Below, one piece after another: positions 758 through 47,215 of a stretch of DNA of 64,000 nucleotides (within the stretch, counting starts at the first letter, position 1; each line of letters opens with the position of its first letter). A model generated the notes under the pieces. That model was not told where the DNA came from. It worked only from the letters and a program-made list of their open reading frames with translations, and did not search any database. Position numbers and translations under genes: made by a program. The stretch comes from an uncultured Chloroflexia bacterium. GTDB lineage: Bacteria; Chloroflexota; Chloroflexia; QHBQ01; JADMIH01. The stretch spans positions 256,001-320,000 of the forward strand of contig CAWCNY010000006.1 in the NCBI GenBank assembly GCA_963797095.1, read 5' to 3'.

Positions 758-2203
758 CTATGGGTTGTTGTCGCCTGTGTAATAGATGCGGTAGATCGCG
801 TTTGCTTTGTCGTCGGTGAGTAGGAGGGAGCCATCGGGGGCCATGATCGGGTCTACCGGGCGGCCCCACACGTCGCCATTGACGCGCCAGCCTGTGGCGA
901 AATCCTCTACCAGCAGATCGCCCGCGTTGGGGTCGGGTTGGTTCTCCTTGAAGCGGATGCGTACGACCTTGTAGCCGGTTGGTTGGCTTCGGTTCCAGCT
1001 ACCGTGGAAGGCCACAAACAGGTCGCCTTTATACGAGGCGGGGAACTGGTCGCCCTCGTAGAAACCAAGTCCGAGGGGTGCCGAGTGGGCCTGCATCTCG
1101 ACTGCGGGCACGCCTGTAGTGCCGCAGAAGCCTTCAGGCGCATCCTGTGGGGCTTCAGAGTTGGTGTCCTTTACCCGGGTATCGTAGCAGTAAGGCCAGC
1201 CGTAGTTTGTGCCCTCCTTTACGTCGTAGATCGTTTCGGGGGGGATATTGTCGCCCAGGTTGTCGCGCCCGTTGTTGGTGACCCACATGTCGCCCGTTAT
1301 GGGGTGGAACACCAGGCCGACCGCGTTGCGTAAGCCATTCGCGTATACCTCCTGGAACTGCCCATCGGGTGAGTACTGGGAGACGGCTGCGCGCTTTTCG
1401 TTGCTCTCTTTGCAGACGTTGCAGGAAGAGCCTGCCGACACGTAGAGATTGCCGTCAGGCCCGAAGGCGATTGTGCGGGTTGAGTGGCCGCCCCCGGTGG
1501 GCAGGTCGTTGGCGATCACATCCTTCTTGTCTGCCTTGCCGTCACCGTCGGTGTCCTCAAGGCGGATGATGCTGCTTTCGTTGGCGACGTATACTCCGTT
1601 GTCCTTGAAGGCGATGCCGTGCACGTTGCCGAGATCGCTGGCGAAGGTGTCGGCGCTGTCGGCCACGCCGTCGCCGTCTTTATCGGGAAGGGTGACTACA
1701 CGCCCATCGCCCGTGACGGTGGCGTAGACCAGGCCGCCTGGAGAAATGCCAAGCCAGCGCACACCGTTGAGGCCGGTGGCGTACACCTGGATATGGAAGC
1801 CTGCTGGCAGGTTGATGCCGCGCTCTCCCTCGAAAACACCCGTGCTCGTGCTGTCCGTGGTTTCTATTGTGGTAGCGGTGAGGGTGAGAGGCCCTTCTTC
1901 GGCGGCCTCGGTTGGCGTTGCTTCTGCGCTTGCAGTCATGGTAGGCGTGGCTTCCGCCCCACCTGTGCCGTTATTATCGCTGCTGGCAGGGACGGTGGCG
2001 CTGATGGTGGGCACCGGGGCCGGGATCTCGCCTGTTGGGACGGATACCGGGGCGCTCGGCTGAGGGTTAGGGGCGCTGACCGTGGAGGTGGGCACGCTCG
2101 CTTGCGGTGTGGCCGTTGGATTGCCGGAATCGCACGCGCCCAGTATGAGGGCGCCAATCAAAGTGAATGCGGGGAGGATTCTGAACCGTAACTTGGATCT
2201 CAT
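758..2203 (-). CDS. PQQ-dependent sugar/sorbosone dehydrogenase family lipoprotein with Pro/Thr-rich linker
   Basis: Start taken at ATG 2203 (AGGAG RBS). Lipobox LGAC; motifs GSSCNVC, GLRNAVG, AHSAPLG, FHGSWNR, GRPVD. Confidence 0.85.
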   Translation of the reverse strand: MRSKLRFRILPAFTLIGALILGACDSGNPTATPQASVPTSTVSAPNPQPSAPVSVPTGEIPAPVPTISATVPASSDNNGTGGAEATPTMTASAEATPTEAAEEGPLTLTATTIETTDSTSTGVFEGERGINLPAGFHIQVYATGLNGVRWLGISPGGLVYATVTGDGRVVTLPDKDGDGVADSADTFASDLGNVHGIAFKDNGVYVANESSIIRLEDTDGDGKADKKDVIANDLPTGGGHSTRTIAFGPDGNLYVSAGSSCNVCKESNEKRAAVSQYSPDGQFQEVYANGLRNAVGLVFHPITGDMWVTNNGRDNLGDNIPPETIYDVKEGTNYGWPYCYDTRVKDTNSEAPQDAPEGFCGTTGVPAVEMQAHSAPLGLGFYEGDQFPASYKGDLFVAFHGSWNRSQPTGYKVVRIRFKENQPDPNAGDLLVEDFATGWRVNGDVWGRPVDPIMAPDGSLLLTDDKANAIYRIYYTGDNNP

Positions 2204-2286
2204 TCGTTCGTTGTTCTCCTGATTCGTAACGTGAGGAATGGAATAGTTTGAGCGGGAGGTAGCAAGCTCTGTTCCCAGTATACAAT

Positions 2287-2314
2287 GTCCGAGAGGGGAC
2301 GTCCGAGAGGGGAC
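2287..2314. repeat. Perfect 14-bp tandem duplication gtccgagaggggac x2
   Basis: Read directly in the divergent intergenic region. Confidence 0.9.
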
Positions 2315-2393
2315 GACAGGCGGCGGACGGCATCTTGTTGGTTGACCCATAGTGGGTATGGGAGTACAATCGTGCCCAGGAGAAGATGACGGT

Positions 2394-3470
2394 ATGAAGG
2401 TAATTGTGCAAATACCCTGCTATAACGAAGAAGAATCGCTGCCTGATGTGATCGCGGGGATGCCGAAATCTATCCCAGGCGTGGACGTGTTGGAAACACT
2501 GGTGATAGACGACGGCTCGACCGATAGAACGGTGGAGATGGCCCGGCAACTGGGGGTGACGCATATCGTGCGGCACAGCGGCAACAAGGGGTTGGCGGCG
2601 GCCTTCCAGACGGGCCTGGATGCCTGCCTGCGGCTGGGGGCCGATATCATCGTCAATACGGACGGGGATAACCAGTACCCGCAGGCGATGATCCCCGAAC
2701 TGGTCGCGCCTATCATCCGGGGTGAGGCCGAGATGGTGGTGGGCGACAGGCAGGTGCGCCGGATTGAGCACTTTTCGCCCGTCAAGAAGGTGTTGCAGGT
2801 GATGGGCAGCTGGGTGGTGCGACAGGCTTCGGGCACGGAGGTGCCGGACGCGCCTAGCGGCTTCAGGGCGCTTTCGCGTGAGGCGGCGCTCAGGCTCAAC
2901 GTGATCACGAACTACACTTACACGCTTGAGACGATAGTGCAAGCGGGCAAGAAGAACATCAAAATCGCGAGCATACCCGTTACGACGAATGTGGTCAGGC
3001 GCAAATCGAGGTTGGTGCGCGGTATCTTCGATTACGTGAAGAAGTCGGGGGCAACCATCGTGCGGTTATATGCTATGTACGAGCCTCTGAAGGTCTTCTT
3101 TTATATAGGATTGGTGCTGCTTGGGATCGCGGCCTTCGGCGCGTTGAAGATATTGTTCCACTACTTCTTCCAGGAAGGGATGAACTTCCGCCAAACCTTC
3201 GACCGGCACGCACCCACCACGATTGTGACCCTTATCACATTGGTGTTCGGGTTCCAGATATGGTTGATAGGCCTTCTCGCCGACCTGATCGCGGCCAGCC
3301 GCCGCCTTACCGAGGAAGTGCTTTACAGGGTCAAGCGCACAGAGCTTGAGCTTGATGGTTTGCGCAAGCGCGGGCAGGTTCTGACTGAAGGTGAGCAACT
3401 TGACGGTATCGAGTCCCAGGCAGCGCAAGAGCAGGCTCAGGAACCTGAATTGGAAGGGACTCATGTGTGA
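2394..3470 (+). CDS. Glycosyltransferase family 2 (DPM1/polyprenol-phosphate glycosyltransferase-like)
   Basis: IPCYNEE, IDDGSTD, NKGLAAA, DGDNQY, SGFRA; two C-terminal TM helices. Confidence 0.9.
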   Translation: MKVIVQIPCYNEEESLPDVIAGMPKSIPGVDVLETLVIDDGSTDRTVEMARQLGVTHIVRHSGNKGLAAAFQTGLDACLRLGADIIVNTDGDNQYPQAMIPELVAPIIRGEAEMVVGDRQVRRIEHFSPVKKVLQVMGSWVVRQASGTEVPDAPSGFRALSREAALRLNVITNYTYTLETIVQAGKKNIKIASIPVTTNVVRRKSRLVRGIFDYVKKSGATIVRLYAMYEPLKVFFYIGLVLLGIAAFGALKILFHYFFQEGMNFRQTFDRHAPTTIVTLITLVFGFQIWLIGLLADLIAASRRLTEEVLYRVKRTELELDGLRKRGQVLTEGEQLDGIESQAAQEQAQEPELEGTHV

Positions 3471-3769
3471 AGCCCAACGTCTTCAGCATGATCATGCACG
3501 ACGGCTCGCGCCATTTTGGCGATTTACCGCTGACTGTGTTATGGTATGACCTGCGCGATCACATACAGGGTATACCGGGCGCGCAACTCACGGGTTTTGT
3601 GACCGATCATGTTACCGAGGCCTGGATCGATTTCGACTATAAAGGGTACCGGTTCTCGGTGAACGATCAGTATGGCGATTACTGGTTTTTCGTGGAGGAC
3701 TCCGCCTGCCCAGACGATATACTTCAGGAAGTGCTGGCCTATTGCGCGCTTCTGCTGGGCAACGAGTAG
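3467..3769 (+). CDS. Hypothetical protein
   Basis: 100-aa ORF with GTGA overlap to the GT2 stop. Confidence 0.65.
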   Translation: MKPNVFSMIMHDGSRHFGDLPLTVLWYDLRDHIQGIPGAQLTGFVTDHVTEAWIDFDYKGYRFSVNDQYGDYWFFVEDSACPDDILQEVLAYCALLLGNE

Positions 3770-3874
3770 GGCAATCCAGGGCAACCTCAGTCGCCGTAGA
3801 TCAGGCAGGGTGTCACGGTGACGGGGTAAGTTCTGTTCCATTAACAGAAGGTGAATAACACGCGTCAAAATTGC

Positions 3875-3909
3875 TTGTAACCCGAAAAAGATTGTGATAG
3901 AATAAACAA
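3875..3909 (+). promoter_or_regulatory. Sigma70-like nuo promoter with overlapping Rex-like operator
   Basis: TTGTAA(3875-80)-17 nt-TAGAAT(3898-3903) with upstream TG. TTGTGATAGAATAAACAA (3892-3909) resembles the Rex box TTGTGAANNNNTTCACAA. Confidence 0.55.
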
Positions 3910-3981
3910 GGATTGTACGCCTCCATCCCATGCGCCAAAAGCGTTTCGAAGCGTGCGATCTAACTCCACCAGGAGGGAAGC

Positions 3982-4416
3982 ATGCTCGTACTGGCATCCA
4001 CGCTGGCACAGGCCACACCGATCCCCGTGGCGCAGGCTGTCACTTCCGTTTCCCAGAATCAGACTGACTGGCTTGTGATCGCCCTATTTTTCTCTTTCGC
4101 GCTGGGGATCGCCGTGACCATGATGTTCATTCCCGCGCTTTTGCGCCCCAAGGCTCCTAACCCCATCAAGGGTACGCCCTTTGAATCTGGTATGCCCCCG
4201 ATTGGGGAAGCGCAGGCGCGCTACACGATCCGCTACTACGTGATCGCCATGTTGTTCGTGGTGTTCGATATAGAAGCCGTGTTCTTCTATCCGTGGGCTG
4301 TAGCGTTCAATACTATCGGCTGGTATGGGCTGGTAGAGATGATACTGTTTATTGTCTTACTTTTAGTTGCGTATATATACGCCTGGAGAAAGGGGGCACT
4401 CGATTGGGTCTCCTAG
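3982..4416 (+). CDS. nuoA: NADH-quinone oxidoreductase subunit A
   Basis: [27 protein letters not shown]; AGGAGG RBS. Confidence 0.97.
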
Positions 4417-4910
4417 TAAATAGATTCCGTCCAAGTGTGGTTACTACCACCGCGGACTTCCTTTTTAACTGGGCGCATAGATATTCTATGTGGCCCTTGA
4501 TACTGGGAACTGCTTGCTGCGCCATCGAGATGATGGCGGTTGGCATATCGCGCTTCGATATGCTTGAGCGGTTCGGGATGCTCTACAGGTTCTCGCCCCG
4601 CCAGAGCGATGTGATGCTGGTGTGCGGCACGGTTACCAAGAAGTTCGCGCCCGTAATGCGCACCCTTTGGGACCAGATGAGCGAGCCTAAGTGGTGCATC
4701 GCGGTCGGCAACTGCGCCAGCGCGGGCGGGCCTTTCCCGACCTACGCCGTGGTACAGGGCATCGACGAAGTGGTGCCGGTGGACATCTATATACCCGGCT
4801 GCCCGCCCAACCCTGAGGCGATCTTCTACGGCATATTGAAGCTGCAAGAGATCGTCCAGCAGCAGACGCTTGCCCGCACAGGCCCCAAGCCGGAGAAGAA
4901 GCAAGCATGA
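4404..4910 (+). CDS. nuoB: NADH-quinone oxidoreductase subunit B
   Basis: [21 protein letters not shown]; probable TTG start overlapping nuoA. Confidence 0.97.
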
Positions 4911-4916
4911 TTAGTT

Positions 4917-5000
4917 GTCGGTAGTCGGTAGTCGGATGCAGTGTCAGTTCCGACTACCGACTACGGACTACCGACTACGGACTACCGACTACCGACTACC
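4917..5000. repeat. Inverted heptamer tandem repeats (gtcggta)n / (ccgacta)n
   Basis: About 3 units, a spacer, then about 7 complementary units between nuoB and nuoC. Confidence 0.9.
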
Positions 5001-5010
5001 GAGGGAACAA

Positions 5011-44122: not shown

Positions 44123-44298
44123 CTCGCTTGTCTATCGGGTCTTATCATGTGATCTATCCCTCCTAATATATCGGGCATCCATCGGATAGGCATCGTGCGC
44201 AAGGTGGAACCAGGCAACAACGAGTGGAGTAACATTATCTACTACTTCTGTACGACCCTATTTAGGCCCTGGAATCGCAAGTAAGGTGGACCCCGTTG

Positions 44299-44489
44299 TC
44301 AAGACCACTGGGAGGCATTTTCTAAGGTGAGATTGCCTCCTTCTTGTGGGGTAGCTAGCCGACGGTAGACTGCCGCCGGTGTCTGATAGTCGAGGGCCTG
44401 GTGGGGCCGCTCATGGTTGTAGAATTCGATGTATTGGCCCAGGCTATGCCTTGCCTCTCTAGGAGTGCAGTATTCGTGCAGGTACACCT
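44299..44489 (-). CDS. IS3 transposase orfB, exon 3
   Basis: (E)VYLHEY...YIEFYNHERPHQALDYQTP, the IS3 C-terminal motif. Confidence 0.9.
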
Positions 44490-45260
44490 GTAGGCTAAGG
44501 GCCGTGCGCCTTGAGGTATTGCTATCTCAGGTTTCACTGCCCTCGCCTCCAAACCGGACGTACTCATTTCTGAGTATCTCGGCTTTCCCGTCCTTCGTTC
44601 CTTGGCTGGCAAGCCAAGTATTGCAAGTAGGATTTTCGGTTGTTGTGGCACTATGTGCCCCTCCTTTCCCCCTTGCAAGTGAAGGACCTGCGAGACTTCG
44701 CCTTGTACACGCCGTTAACGTGCGCCGAGAGTGGGCATTACTCCACTGACTACTACTCTCGCTCCGTAGCCTGGTGTAATATTCAGGTCCTGCAACCATA
44801 GCCTTGTGTCAGACTTGTATCTAACGCAGTGGCATTTACACTCGAGCTATCCCCGTTTAGTCTTAAACCAGATGCTTTCGATTTAGGTGGCTCGTTCAAA
44901 CCTTTATTCTCTTACTGAGACTGTGTTGGCCTAGAGGGTACATCCCATCATGAGGAGAAATGGGATGTTGGGCCAAAAGTGAGTGTCACCAGCCTTGCTG
45001 TCACCTGTCACCAGCCTGCTCACCCGGTTCAAGTTGCCCCACTCGGTTCTGAGCTTCAAGCAGTTTAGCCTTCACCATGTCGAAATTACTCTGAGAAACC
45101 CTCCGGTTGACTGGAACCATTGTTTTCCCTTACTGATGCCGTGCTATGTTCCCTCACGAGTTTTCACTCTTGAGGTAAGGCACTGAGTAGCTTCCTTTCC
45201 CTCAGGAAGCGAGATTGTTCGGAGCAATCTCACTGGCACTAAGACCCTTTACGGGCGCAC
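44490..45260 (-). mobile_element. ORF-less group II intron 2 (771 nt, IIA/ML-like)
   Basis: 5' GTGCGCCCG; domain V AAGCCGAGATACTCAGAAATGAGTACGTCCGGTTT; DVI ending CCTAC; EBS1/delta loop at 44950-57 complementary to the junction ATGAGG|AG. Confidence 0.93.
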
Positions 45261-45501
45261 CCTCATAGTTGATGGTTCTCCAAAGCCGCTCGGTGAAGAT
45301 GTTGTCCACGAACCGGCCCCTCCCATCCATGCTGATCCGCACGCCCGCCTCCTCCAACAGGCTGGTGTACTGCGGAGAGGTGAAGTGGCTTCCCTGGTCG
45401 GAGTTCCAGATATGGGGAGTCGCCCTGGAAAGAGCGGCACGAGTAGCTTCCATCACGAAGCTTTGCCCCATGTTCTGGCTCAGCTCCCAGCTAACGATGT
45501 A
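45261..45501 (-). CDS. IS3 transposase orfB, exon 2
   Basis: YIVSWEL...WNSDQGSHFTS...SMDGRGRFVDNIFTERLWRTINYE (D2 and E of the DDE motif). Confidence 0.92.
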
Positions 45502-46231
45502 GTAGGCTAGGCCGCCAGCGAGTTGCCGTTGCCGACACTTTTCTGTCGGCCCGCCCCCGAACCCCGCATGCGCGTTGTCCACGCACGAGGCTCTCCAGTG
45601 TCATGATACGTGAACGTGAGTACCCTTTGTCCTGCCTGATGGCAGTCCTCTGCTACCACGTTCGCGTATGAGGTTGAGTACAGTTTCGGCGCTCTGCATT
45701 ACGCATACCTCTGTGTCTGTCTCCTCCCTGACACCTGTCACCCTTCCCCATGTAGACGGCTTTCCCGTCCGCAGAGTAGTATGGTGACTCCGTTACCATG
45801 GGGGTCTCCCCCTTTAGGCAATCCCATATTCCCTGGGTGTTAGACGTTCTAGCGTGACTTAGGTGCTTCGTTCGCTTCCTTTAGTAACCTCGTTGGCTAC
45901 CGCCCTCCAGTGGAAAGTTTCAGACGGCTCTCGATACTCCGCCCTGTACTGGAGGCTCTGCCATAAACAGTGTGTCAGAGGACGTGGCATTGCATCGCTG
46001 GAAACTGAAGTTCGGGCAATATTGCCTGAATGGGCAATAACAGTTTAGCTCTCACCATATCACGCGGGTCTTGCAGGGCCGTACGGTAACTGTTTTCCCG
46101 TACTCCCCACTTTATCGGCATGCTACTTTCCCCTTCAACTTTCGTATCCAGGTAGGCCGATTGACCCATAGGTCTCCTTTCCAACCTATCCCGCTTGCGG
46201 CGGGGATCTAACGTCCGGTTATATGGCGCAC
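45502..46231 (-). mobile_element. ORF-less group II intron 1 (730 nt, IIA/ML-like)
   Basis: 5' GTGCGCCAT; domain V GAGCCTCGTGCGTGGACAACGCGCATGCGGGGTTC; DVI ending CCTAC; splits HSR|YIVSW exactly between codons. Confidence 0.93.
45601..45699 (-). pseudogene. Remnant of intron-encoded RT/maturase (32 codons, internal deletion)
   Basis: MQSAETVLNLIRERGSRGLP resembles the N-terminus of group II intron RTs; lies just 5' of domain V, i.e. in domain IV. Confidence 0.7.
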
Positions 46232-46714
46232 GCGGGAGTGCCAGTCCAACACCGCCACGAGGTAGAGCCAGCCTGGGTAGTCGCCCTTCATCCTGACGTA
46301 GGTCAAATCCACTCCCCAGACGTGGTTCGGGTACTGGGCCACCACTCCCCGGAGCAGATAGGGATATTTCGAATCGGACGCTCGTTTGCTACCTCTGCTC
46401 AGATGCGGACCCGGCACTATGGCCGAAAGACCCATCTCTCGCATATGCCTGATTACGGCTTTGCGGTTGACCGCATGACCCTCTTGCTGCAACTGCACGG
46501 TGATGCGCCGAGAGCCGTAGAAGGGGCGAGCTGTGTAGATTTCGTCTATGCGCCTCTTGAGGAGCACCTCCTCAGAAGAGGGAGGCACACTGTGGTAGTA
46601 CAAGCTGCTGCGGTTCAGCCCAAGCAGCTGGGTCTGAGCACGCATCGACAACCCCTGCACAGTGGTAACCGAAGGCTCCCGCTCCAGCAACGCTACTCGC
46701 TCCGCCCTACTCAT
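46232..46714 (-). CDS. IS3 transposase orfB, exon 1
   Basis: LLGLNRSSLYY, PFYGSRRI, YPYLLR, PNHVWGVDLTY, LYLVAVLDWHSR. Confidence 0.92.
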
Positions 46715-47021
46715 CGAGCCGGCCAGCTTTTTTTCCCAGCCACTCCAACTGGGTGGTCAGCTTGCCTATCTGGGCATACAGTTCATGCACTTTCTGGGCG
46801 TGTGCCTGTTCCCTCTGTGCCTGCTCTTTGGCCGACTGGCCGGAGAAGAGGGTGGGCAGCCCCTGCAAAGCGATGTCTCGCCACTGGTAGAGTTGGTGGG
46901 GGTGGATGCCATGTTCGGCGGCTATCTGCGCGACACTCTTCTCCTCGCGCAGTATCTCCCGCACGATGTTAGCCTTGTACTCCGGTGAATACTGGTTGCG
47001 TAGTCCGTTCATCTTTCTCAT
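46707..47021 (-). CDS. IS3 transposase orfA (HTH)
   Basis: YSPEYKANIV, IAAEHGIHP.QLYQW, LYAQIGKL..LEWL.KK. Confidence 0.92.
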   Translation of the reverse strand: MRKMNGLRNQYSPEYKANIVREILREEKSVAQIAAEHGIHPHQLYQWRDIALQGLPTLFSGQSAKEQAQREQAHAQKVHELYAQIGKLTTQLEWLGKKAGRLDE

Positions 47022-47083
47022 GGTTGTTCCATCTCACCTTAAATCCTGCCGTTTCGTGGTCTAGTTTATGGGATCCATTATAA

Positions 47084-47140
47084 AGGGCACCCCTCATAGG
47101 TGCCCTCTGTAGGGTGCCCTCTGTAGGGTGCCCTCTGTAG
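47084..47140. repeat. Hairpin agggcacc/ggtgccct plus three perfect 14-bp copies of ggtgccctctgtag
   Basis: Copies at 47099-112, 47113-126 and 47127-140, abutting the IS end. Confidence 0.9.
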
Positions 47141-47215
47141 AAGAGATCCTTTTGTATGCCGCTCCATAAGTCCCGAAGGGCACCTATTTTTGGTGCCTTT
47201 ATGCTCTTGGCCGGA

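What the first reader, a model, noticed from the sequence alone, without database searches (positions are those of the whole stretch)
44282..47082. IS3 transposase split by two different ORF-less group II introns: a splicing-dependent transposon
Seen: the IS has IRs and an AAG target duplication. orfB is interrupted at LDWHSR|YIVSW by a 730-nt intron (46231-45502) and at NYE-G|AG-VYL by a 771-nt intron (45260-44490). Both start GTGCG, have a domain V with the AGC triad and end CCTAC. Exons of 483+241+191 nt give 915 nt, an uninterrupted 304-aa transposase with intact D-D-E; intron-free IS length is 1300 bp. Established: group II introns do target IS elements, and ORF-less introns need self-splicing or a maturase in trans. 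Inference: this is a three-layer parasite in which transposase expression requires two splicing events (an AND gate), and the IS could carry both ribozymes when it moves.
Basis: partly seen in the sequence, partly recalled or inferred. Interest (0 to 1): 0.92.

Follow-up and report, generated by a model that had tools for sequence, protein, structure and literature searches.

The report
Transposase gene split by two introns
A jumping gene of the IS3 family carries two different self-splicing (group II) introns, neither with its own helper gene, inside its transposase gene; it is a tidy new example of the known habit of such introns to settle in mobile elements.

Summary
Window 44282-47082 (- strand) is an IS3-family element of 1300 bp without inserts, with a 3-bp duplication. 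Its orfB is split by a 730-nt and a 771-nt group II intron. Rfam Intron_gpII matches both 3' ends (43.7 bits, cut-off 40). Intron-free relatives are colinear across both sites, and the three exons match the IS3 profile end to end, giving a 304-aa DD(35)E protein.

Intron 1 is a deletion derivative of LtrA-like, RT-encoding introns present in the same genome. It keeps 20 codons of the RT gene start. Intron 2 belongs to a family without an ORF seen in at least three other genomes, and has a second copy (770/771 identical) elsewhere in this genome.

EBS/IBS pairings covary with the exons in relatives. They are good for intron 2 (7/7) and imperfect for intron 1 (EBS2 5/5, EBS1 4/6).

Splicing itself, the "AND gate" and joint movement are not shown: no RNA run was available and there is no second complete intron-bearing copy. 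Group II introns in IS3-like and other transposase genes, ORF-less derivatives driven in trans, and splicing-limited transposase expression are all in print. This is a new member of a known kind, of moderate interest.

The parts
44282..47082 (-). Whole IS3-family element, 2801 bp with the two introns and 1300 bp without them
   Evidence: The ends are defined by where similarity to related copies stops (4 left ends, 6 right ends).
47083..47085 (.). Target-site duplication, copy beside the left end (AAG on +, CTT on -)
   Evidence: A 3-bp match has a 1/64 chance, so this is modest evidence.
44279..44281 (.). Target-site duplication, copy beside the right end (AAG on +)
47056..47082 (-). Left terminal inverted repeat (about 27 nt, imperfect; 18/27 match to the right one by my count from the printed ends)
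44282..44308 (-). Right terminal inverted repeat
46707..47021 (-). orfA, 104 aa, HTH_Tnp_1
   Evidence: Pfam PF01527 at 1.5e-12. NF033516 profile positions 1-83.
46726..46737 (-). G3A7 run at the orfA/orfB overlap. orfB lies in the +1 frame relative to orfA.
46232..46714 (-). orfB exon 1 (483 nt, 161 aa; HTH_21, start of rve; first catalytic D at residue 136)
45502..46231 (-). Intron 1, 730 nt, an ORF-less deletion derivative of LtrA-like (ML-type) introns
   Evidence: It keeps 132 of 139 consensus D1-DIII pairs.
45985..45989 (-). Intron 1 EBS2 (TGCCA), which pairs 5/5 with exon positions -12..-8 (TGGCA)
   Evidence: The same loop pairs with the exons of L022 and L024.
45929..45934 (-). Intron 1 EBS1 (TCGAGA) in a hairpin loop, pairing only 4/6 with TCCCGC. 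The adjacent delta A pairs with +1 T.
45640..45699 (-). Remnant of the intron-encoded protein gene start in domain IV of intron 1 (20 codons, 13/20 identical to the 620-aa IEP of L022)
45502..45595 (-). Intron 1 domains V-VI (AGC triad; bulged A 7 nt from the 3' end)
45261..45501 (-). orfB exon 2 (241 nt; second D at residue 196 and E at residue 232, 35 residues apart)
44490..45260 (-). Intron 2, 771 nt, member of a family with no ORF in any member seen
   Evidence: It keeps 188 of 197 consensus pairs.
44949..44955 (-). Intron 2 EBS1 (CCTCATG) in a hairpin loop, pairing 7/7 (one G-U) with the last 7 exon-2 bases. The adjacent delta T pairs with +1 A.
44648..44658 (-). Hairpin in domain IV of intron 2, preceded by a GGAGG-like stretch and conserved in all 4 family members. 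It is a possible maturase-binding (DIVa-like) site; this is inference.
   Evidence: 4 invariant pairs at columns 674-684.
44490..44587 (-). Intron 2 domains V-VI
44299..44489 (-). orfB exon 3 (191 nt including the stop; rve_3 C-terminal part)

Best explanation
One copy of an IS3-family insertion sequence has been colonised by two unrelated, non-autonomous group II introns. Both sit at coding sites of its transposase gene orfB, in the sense orientation.

Intron 1 arose from an LtrA-like (mitochondrial-like class, IIA-type) intron by deletion of almost the whole reverse-transcriptase gene. Intron 2 belongs to a lineage in which every member seen lacks an ORF.

Both keep the parts a ribozyme needs: the 5' GUGCG, a D1-DIII fold as intact as in their relatives, domain V with the AGC triad, and domain VI with the branch A. 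Both recognise the IS exons through EBS/IBS and delta-delta' pairings. They must therefore have been inserted, and would have to be spliced, with a reverse transcriptase/maturase made by one of the full-length introns elsewhere in the genome.

Full-length DD(35)E transposase can be translated only from mRNA from which both introns have been removed. The likely net effect is that this IS copy is damped or silenced while giving the introns a harmless home.

Shown here: the anatomy, the family relations, target-pairing covariation, and recent copying of intron 2. Inferred: help in trans, actual splicing, and the effect on transposition.
For: - Boundaries and the IS frame.
- Empty sites in relatives: L028, L050, L055 and L056 span both sites. 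L049 and L030 span site 2 only.
- Intron 1 relatives carry a gene for a 620-aa protein with RVT_1, Intron_maturas2 and AI2M-like HNH domains. Its best solved relative is LtrA (E 5.6e-121).
- Intron 1 retains 13/20 identical N-terminal codons of that gene.
- Consensus D1-DIII fold of intron 1 and 4 relatives: 139 pairs, 61 with compensatory changes. Intron 1 keeps 132/139, against 126-134 in the relatives.
- The intron 1 family EBS1 and EBS2 loops pair with the different exons of L022 (GTCGTC x GACGAC) and L024 (ATCGTC x GATGAT; GCGTAC x GTATGC).
- Both intron 1 EBS1 mismatches fall on synonymous third codon positions of Ser-Arg. The cognate TCT CGA encodes the same residues as the present TCC CGC (reasoned).
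- Intron 2 family fold: 197 pairs, 107 with compensatory changes. Intron 2 keeps 188/197.
- Intron 2 EBS1 covaries with the exon in 3 members, and delta-delta' in 2.
- The second intron 2 copy at C4:713111-713881 differs at 1 of 771 bases and sits at a worse-matching site (5/7).
- A diverged IS fragment on C5 carries the last 36 nt of an intron-2-like element at the same site. That tail is 34/36 identical, against about 80% for the IS part; P=0.016 if the true identity were 80%.
- Six ML-type maturase loci are in the genome, three of them with open frames of 628 (twice) and 653 codons.
- Published parallels: PMC2882425, PMC4238363, PMC3522654 (passages read).
Against: - No RNA data, so splicing is not shown.
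- Intron 1 EBS1/IBS1 has 2 mismatches in 6, one at position -1 next to the splice site. This could make 5' splice-site use poor.
- The nearest RT-encoding relatives of intron 1 in this genome are only about 70-81% identical in the ribozyme. Cross-service by their proteins is an assumption.
- No RT-encoding close relative of intron 2 was found in this genome: nhmmer gave only remote matches to the ML-type introns. None was found in the 60 related genomes searched by DNA either.
- Intron 2 EBS2/IBS2 is weak (4 bp).
- The IS is single-copy, so its own activity is unknown.
- orfB is in the +1 frame, not the -1 frame, relative to orfA. How an OrfAB fusion would be made is unclear.
Confidence: 0.6

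Rival explanations
1. Dead relic. At least intron 1 no longer splices in this context, so this IS copy is permanently inactivated. The intact reading frame only reflects a recent insertion.
For: - Intron 1 EBS1/IBS1 pairs at only 4/6, with a mismatch at -1.
- Intron 1 has no other copy above 81% identity in the genome.
- There is no second full copy of this IS. The other IS relatives in the genome are broken or fragmentary.
- Published work on RmInt1 reports under 1% correctly ligated exons in vivo even for an active intron (PMC4238363, passage read).
Against: - Intron 1 keeps as many consensus pairs as its RT-encoding relatives (132/139 against 126-134).
- It keeps EBS2 5/5, delta-delta', and domains V and VI.
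- The 304-codon spliced frame has no stop or frameshift, whereas the intron-free paralogue is frameshifted.
- A metagenome contig holds a 94%-identical relative of intron 1 joined to a similar exon (record 22).
Confidence: 0.3
2. One reading: a selected three-layer composite. The two introns act as an AND gate that regulates transposition, and they travel with the IS.
For: - Both introns must be removed for a full-length protein.
- Both target conserved coding sites of this IS family.
- The C5 fragment shows that site 2 was occupied in a second, diverged IS copy.
Against: - There is no second complete intron-bearing copy in this genome.
- None of the IS relatives found among the 60 related genomes has either intron at these sites.
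- The two introns have different histories. Intron 2 was copied recently to a non-IS site, and intron 1 is unique in the genome.
- Occupation of two sites is what independent homing into a safe target predicts, without any selection for gating.
Confidence: 0.08
3. Assembly artefact: the introns were joined to the IS by misassembly of repeats.
For: The genome holds many group II introns and IS fragments.
Against: - Contigs of separate public runs match at 100% and bridge three junctions: the intron 1 3' junction (45320-45584), the intron 1 5' junction (45991-46355) and the intron 2 5' junction (45105-45323). These runs may come from the source sample, so this is a second assembly rather than an independent organism.
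- The exon phases and profile positions fit to the base.
Confidence: 0.02

Closest known systems
RmInt1 in the transposase gene of ISRm2011-2 (Sinorhizobium meliloti)
   Same: A group II intron sits in the sense orientation inside an IS transposase gene. Stop codons in the intron make splicing necessary for transposase, and inefficient splicing is argued to limit spread of the IS (PMC4238363, abstract and passages read).
   Different: RmInt1 encodes its own protein, is class D/IIB3, is a single intron, and its host is an IS630-Tc1 element. Here there are two ORF-less IIA/ML-like introns in an IS3 element, and splicing is untested.
E.c.I4 in IS3-like transposases (IS629, IS911, ISEc16, ISEc31) of E. 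coli/Shigella
   Same: A group II intron homes to specific positions in IS3-family transposase genes (PMC3522654, passage read).
   Different: It is one RT-encoding intron per IS. Whether its site corresponds to either site here was not tested.
Thermosynechococcus elongatus TeI3/TeI4 introns
   Same: [quoted passage not shown]
- Mobilised and spliced by 'driver' proteins of related introns.
- Insertion at conserved sites in other mobile elements (an IS or another intron, giving twintrons).
- Good EBS/IBS pairing taken as evidence of retrohoming.

(PMC2882425, passages read.) This genome shows the same set of features, including twintrons.
   Different: The passages read say that the closest known relative of the T. 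elongatus intron proteins is the EcI5 protein; that this is a IIB type is recalled. The introns here are LtrA-like. In T. elongatus mobility was shown experimentally. Two different ORF-less introns inside one transposase gene did not appear in the passages I read.
Methanosarcina nested and ORF-less introns (Dai and Zimmerly 2003)
   Same: ORF-less and RT-encoding introns, with homing into related intron ORFs. I know this only from the title in reference lists. The same pattern is seen in this genome's twintrons.
   Different: Archaeal. The paper was not read here.

Membership tests
Group II intron (ribozyme) | Domain V/VI matching the curated covariance model above its gathering score, ending at the 3' splice site | tested here: met
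   RF00029 scores 43.7 bits against 40 for both introns. AGC triad present.
Group II intron (ribozyme) | Consensus 5' end GUGYG and 3' end AY, with a bulged branch A 7-8 nt from the 3' end | tested here: met
   GTGCG...CTAC in both. The A is at -7.
Group II intron (ribozyme) | Conserved D1-DIII secondary structure supported by compensatory changes | tested here: met
   Intron 1 family: 61 of 139 pairs compensatory. Intron 2 family: 107 of 197. These rest on small alignments (5 and 4 sequences) and on RNAalifold's own structure. Rfam D1-D4 models gave no match.
Group II intron (ribozyme) | EBS1-IBS1 and EBS2-IBS2 pairing with the 5' exon | tested here: inconclusive
   Intron 2: EBS1 7/7, EBS2 only 4 bp. 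Intron 1: EBS2 5/5, EBS1 4/6. Loop assignments are supported by covariation in relatives.
Group II intron (ribozyme) | Splicing through a lariat, with ligated exons | not testable with these tools
   No RNA run was listed.
ORF-less (deletion-derived) group II intron served in trans | No RT ORF in domain IV | tested here: met
   No RT-like match within 3.2 kb upstream of either domain V. Lengths are 730 and 771 nt.
ORF-less (deletion-derived) group II intron served in trans | Remnants of the ORF and RT-encoding relatives in the same genome | tested here: met
   Met for intron 1. Not met for intron 2: only remote relatives were found.
ORF-less (deletion-derived) group II intron served in trans | Splicing or mobility dependent on a protein encoded elsewhere | not testable with these tools
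   Indirect only: the 770/771 second copy of intron 2 and intact ML-type protein genes in the genome.
IS3 family insertion sequence | DD(35)E transposase matching the IS3 profile, with an HTH OrfA upstream | tested here: met
   NF033516 positions 1-83, 97-244, 246-327 and 330-368, scoring 43.8+106+73.6+39.5 bits across the four pieces against a cut-off of 160 for a whole protein. D136, D196, E232.
IS3 family insertion sequence | orfB in the -1 frame, fused to orfA by -1 frameshifting at an A-rich heptamer (recalled definition) | tested here: not met
   orfB is in the +1 frame. A -1 shift at the A7 run meets a stop after a few codons. The same layout is seen in 3 copies from 2 assemblies.
IS3 family insertion sequence | Terminal inverted repeats and a 3-4 bp target duplication | tested here: met
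   Imperfect repeats of about 27 nt and a CTT/CTT duplication. The ends begin TA..., with TG only at bases 6-7; the usual TG...CA ends are recalled.

The most novel reading that the evidence does not exclude
This IS3 lineage may be the dedicated homing platform of two long-lived, non-autonomous intron lineages. Each would recognise a conserved coding motif of the transposase (HSR|Y and NYE|EV). The intron 2 lineage would persist across several bacterial families without any cognate RT gene, living off the proteins of unrelated ML-type introns, rather like a SINE on a LINE. Double occupation would make the IS a splicing-gated element whose activity tracks the activity of the genome's autonomous introns.
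Probability: 0.2. Interest if true: 0.5.

Novelty: new member of a known kind. Interest (0 to 1): 0.38.

Why it matters
This is a clean natural example of layered mobile elements: non-autonomous ribozymes inside a DNA transposon, with autonomous helper introns elsewhere in the same genome. The same genome also holds twintrons and a tRNA gene split by an intron.

It offers a compact test system for three questions.

- How far can one intron-encoded protein serve diverged ORF-less introns?
- How much EBS1 mismatch does splicing tolerate in vivo?
- Does intron occupancy damp IS activity?

It does not open a new category. Each ingredient has been described for RmInt1, E.c.I4 and the T. elongatus introns.

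Tried and rejected
- Rfam D1-D4 families: no match at E<=1 in 44200-47200. I did not treat this as evidence against the introns, because these models cover particular lineages and the family alignments support a D1-DIII fold.
- RNA evidence: no RNA holder was listed for the stretch. Laying four DNA runs (X1, X6, X13, X2) gave only contigs. They bridge three intron-exon junctions at 100% identity but say nothing on expression.
- The search for related loci with exon 1 in genome contigs found no confirmed relative. The organism was therefore not named, and the distribution rests on the genome search.
- BLASTN of intron 1 against intron 2 found only 9-21-nt motifs, so they are different introns.
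- I considered that the 5' splice site of intron 1 lies one base upstream, which would improve EBS1 pairing to 5/6. I rejected this because it destroys the GUGCG...AY ends. The spliced product would be the same either way.
- I considered the 14-nt x3 repeat and hairpin just upstream of the IS as a possible intron or exon remnant, because its loop equals the IBS1 of intron 2. The repeat is unique to this place, and the 9-mer CTATGAGGG, which contains that 7-mer, occurs 75 times in the genome. I left it as probably chance.
- Literature: searches listed no paper describing two different ORF-less group II introns in one transposase gene. I read only passages of PMC4238363, PMC8919778, PMC2882425, PMC3236041 and PMC3522654, and no supplements, whose tables of insertion sites could hold such a case. 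PMC2525955 (Simon et al. 2008, ORF-less introns) is not held. Neither it nor Dai and Zimmerly 2003 was read.
- The RT scan used only four reference proteins (two classes) at E<=1e-5, so 'no RT upstream' could miss a very different RT.
Full report
**Observation.** The window lies at G000:C6:256001-320000. On the minus strand, 47082 to 44282 reads as an insertion sequence (IS).
- orfA (47021-46707, 104 aa) has an HTH_Tnp_1 domain.
- orfB starts at 46714 and is open for 161 codons up to 46232. There a stretch beginning GTGCGCC starts; it ends GCCTAC at 45502.
- The frame resumes for 241 nt (45501-45261) and is broken again by GTGCGCC...GCCTAC (45260-44490).
- It then ends with 191 nt (44489-44299).
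- Rfam's Intron_gpII model gives exactly two matches in the 64-kb window, at 45502-45595 and 44490-44587, both on the minus strand. Each scores 43.7 bits (gathering 40) and each ends on the last base of the proposed intron.
- Joining the exons in a script gives a 304-aa protein without a stop.
- The pieces fit protein profiles end to end. Pfam rve positions 4-35 are matched by exon 1 and 36-100 by exon 2. NCBIfam IS3 transposase positions 97-244, 246-327 and 330-368 are matched by exons 1, 2 and 3.
- The catalytic residues are D136 in exon 1 and D196 and E232 in exon 2, with 35 residues between the last two. The motif assignment is recalled.

**The IS.** Four left ends begin TATAATG and six right ends finish CCACC(T/A)TA. 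CTT flanks both ends on the minus strand (AAG on the plus strand). This 3-bp duplication is expected for the family but weak on its own (1/64). Without the introns the element is 1300 bp.

One feature departs from the textbook IS3 layout. orfB is in the +1 frame relative to orfA at a G3A7 run, and a -1 slip there meets a stop after a few codons. The same layout occurs in three copies from two assemblies, so it is probably real. How an OrfAB fusion would be made is open; possibilities are transcriptional slippage, a +1/-2 shift, or a separate OrfB starting at the overlapping ATG.

**Empty sites.** A paralogue at C6:794048-795345 (78.7% identical) is colinear with the intron-free IS across both sites. 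So are copies in three other genomes: L050, L055 and L056. L049 and L030 cover site 2 only. In total site 1 is empty in 4 loci and site 2 in 6.

**Intron 1.** BLASTN finds no second copy in the genome, but finds relatives 70-81% identical over parts of the ribozyme. These relatives are about 2.5 kb long. The copies on C3 and C2 carry a 620-aa ORF. On C1 and at C3:115832, 553 aa are left after an in-frame stop.
- The 620-aa protein has RVT_1, Intron_maturas2 and AI2M-like HNH domains.
- It matches the NCBIfam group II RT/maturase model at 258 bits, below the cut-off of 300.
- Its best solved relative is LtrA of Ll.LtrB (E 5.6e-121 over residues 24-593). That points to the mitochondrial-like class with a IIA-type RNA; the class names are recalled.
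- Domain IV of intron 1 still holds the first 20 codons of this gene (13/20 identical, E 4e-07 for the pair). The last codons overlap domain V, as in the relatives. Intron 1 is therefore a deletion derivative.
- RNAalifold on the first ~480 nt of intron 1 and four relatives predicts 139 pairs, 61 with compensatory changes. Intron 1 forms 132 of them, and the relatives form 126-134.
- The EBS1 loop was located by covariation. In L022 it reads GTCGTC opposite the exon end GACGAC. In L024 it reads ATCGTC opposite GATGAT.
- In intron 1 the same loop positions read TCGAGA opposite TCCCGC. That is 4 of 6 pairs, with mismatches at -4 and -1.
- Both mismatches are at third codon positions of Ser-Arg. 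The perfectly matching TCT CGA would encode the same residues. I read this as homing into, or later drift of, a synonymous variant of the same transposase motif (inference).
- EBS2 (TGCCA) pairs 5/5 with exon positions -12 to -8, in the register used by L022 and L024. The base before EBS1 (A) can pair with the first base of the 3' exon (T) in all three.

**Intron 2.** It shares no significant similarity with intron 1.
- A second copy lies at C4:713111-713881 and differs at 1 of 771 bases. It sits 9 nt after the stop of an MgsA/RarA-type ATPase gene, inside a GAGTGAA repeat.
- ORF-less relatives of 735-825 nt occur in three other genomes: L054, L035 and L052.
- Their alignment gives 197 predicted pairs, 107 with compensatory changes. 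Intron 2 forms 188 of them.
- EBS1 sits in a hairpin loop and covaries with the exon: CCTCATG x TATGAGG here (7/7, one G-U), CCTTTC x GGAAGG in L054, and CGATGAG x TTCATCG in L052.
- The base before EBS1 pairs with the first 3'-exon base here (T-A) and in L054 (G-C).
- The C4 site pairs at only 5/7, so the IS site is the cognate one and C4 looks like an ectopic insertion.
- EBS2 could be placed by covariation in three relatives (alignment column ~305), but it pairs only 4 bp with the IS exon.
- A diverged IS fragment on C5 (about 80% identical) is preceded by the last 36 nt of an intron-2-like element at the same site, 34/36 identical. That suggests repeated homing to this site.
- An nhmmer profile of the family finds only the two copies in this genome, plus remote matches to the ML-type introns. 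No RT-encoding close relative was found.

**Genome background.**
- RF00029 gives 22 matches in the genome, 19 of them above the cut-off.
- Eight of the 22 (7 of the 19) have no RT-like coding sequence within 3.2 kb upstream. These include the three copies discussed here.
- There are 10 GIIM-type and 6 Intron_maturas2-type maturase loci.
- The ML-type introns related to intron 1 are themselves inserted right after the YADD codons of another intron's RT gene, forming twintrons.

**Mechanism.**
- What the sequence shows: both introns are in the sense orientation. Each brings a stop soon after its 5' splice site, giving products of 168 and 260 residues. So only doubly spliced mRNA can encode the full protein.
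- What is inferred from established knowledge of group II introns: without an ORF they need a maturase in trans in vivo. The near-identical second copy of intron 2 means such a protein acted recently. The ML-type proteins in this genome are the candidates.
- Whether the IS is active at all is unknown. It is single-copy, and the other family members in this genome are broken.

**Comparison and novelty.**
- RmInt1 sits in the transposase gene of ISRm2011-2. Its inefficient splicing is argued to limit spread of the IS (PMC4238363).
- In T. elongatus, ORF-deleted introns with ORF remnants are driven by proteins of related introns, and insert into an IS or into other introns (PMC2882425).
- I read passages only of these papers. 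The present case combines these known features.
- Two different ORF-less introns in one transposase gene did not turn up in my three searches. I could not see supplements or the intron databases. I file it as a new member of a known kind.

**Limits.**
- No expression data were available.
- The family alignments are small.
- The structures are RNAalifold predictions.
- The genome is 93% complete.

Noticed in passing
G000:C5:310435-312906 (- strand), outside the window: A full-length group II intron splits a tRNA-Pro(GGG) gene just after the anticodon loop. RF00029 scores 67.3 bits, and the intron has an open frame of 653 codons with an Intron_maturas2 domain. ARAGORN finds the 77-nt tRNA only when the flanks are joined. 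The assembly has no other tRNA-Pro(GGG); it has 2 UGG and 2 CGG.
   Followed up: partly
L022 1579-4082 within 1201-5008 (C3:569578-572081); also C2:823305-825808, L024 1832-4379, L023: Twintrons. An LtrA-like intron with its own 620-aa (or 553-aa) protein gene is inserted directly after the YADD codons of another group II intron's RT gene. That RT gene is of a different type (RVT_1 + GIIM + HNH). There are four such places, two of them identical.
   Followed up: partly
L028 about 2340-2380 (C6: about 794860-794890): The intron-free IS paralogue has a 14-nt tandem duplication (TGGACTGGCACTCG twice) ending 3 nt before the intron-1 insertion site. It shifts the orfB frame. Whether it is related to intron insertion or loss is unknown.
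   Followed up: no
window 46726-46737 (-): orfB is in the +1 frame, not the -1 frame, relative to orfA at a G3A7 run. A -1 slip meets a stop after a few codons. The run totals 10 G+A bases in three copies from two assemblies.
   Followed up: partly
window 47086-47150 (-): Directly upstream of the IS there are three tandem 14-nt units (CTACAGAGGGCACC), then a hairpin whose 7-nt loop equals the IBS1 of intron 2. The repeat is unique in the genome, and the match is probably chance.
   Followed up: partly
L002 1506-2276 (C4:713111-713881): The second copy of intron 2 sits 9 nt after the stop of an MgsA/RarA-type AAA+ ATPase gene, inside a GAGTGAA tandem repeat. The site pairs at only 5/7 with EBS1.
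   Followed up: yes
L032 about 1470-1502 and L043 about 1724-1755 (-): More distant relatives of intron 1 in two other genomes are inserted after codons reading ADRFHL. This looks like a DDE transposase motif of another IS family (recalled, not checked), so this intron lineage may target transposase genes more widely.
   Followed up: no
window 46014-46265: A contig of a freshwater-sediment metagenome run (X2, record 22) carries a 94%-identical relative of intron 1. It is joined to 34 nt of a similar exon that differs at positions -1 and -4, which would pair 5/6 with the same EBS1.
   Followed up: partly
G000 genome-wide: Four further domain V matches above the Rfam cut-off have no RT-like sequence within 3.2 kb upstream, so they may be more ORF-less introns: C4:363294, C3:424726, C3:435563 and C4:422439.
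   Followed up: no
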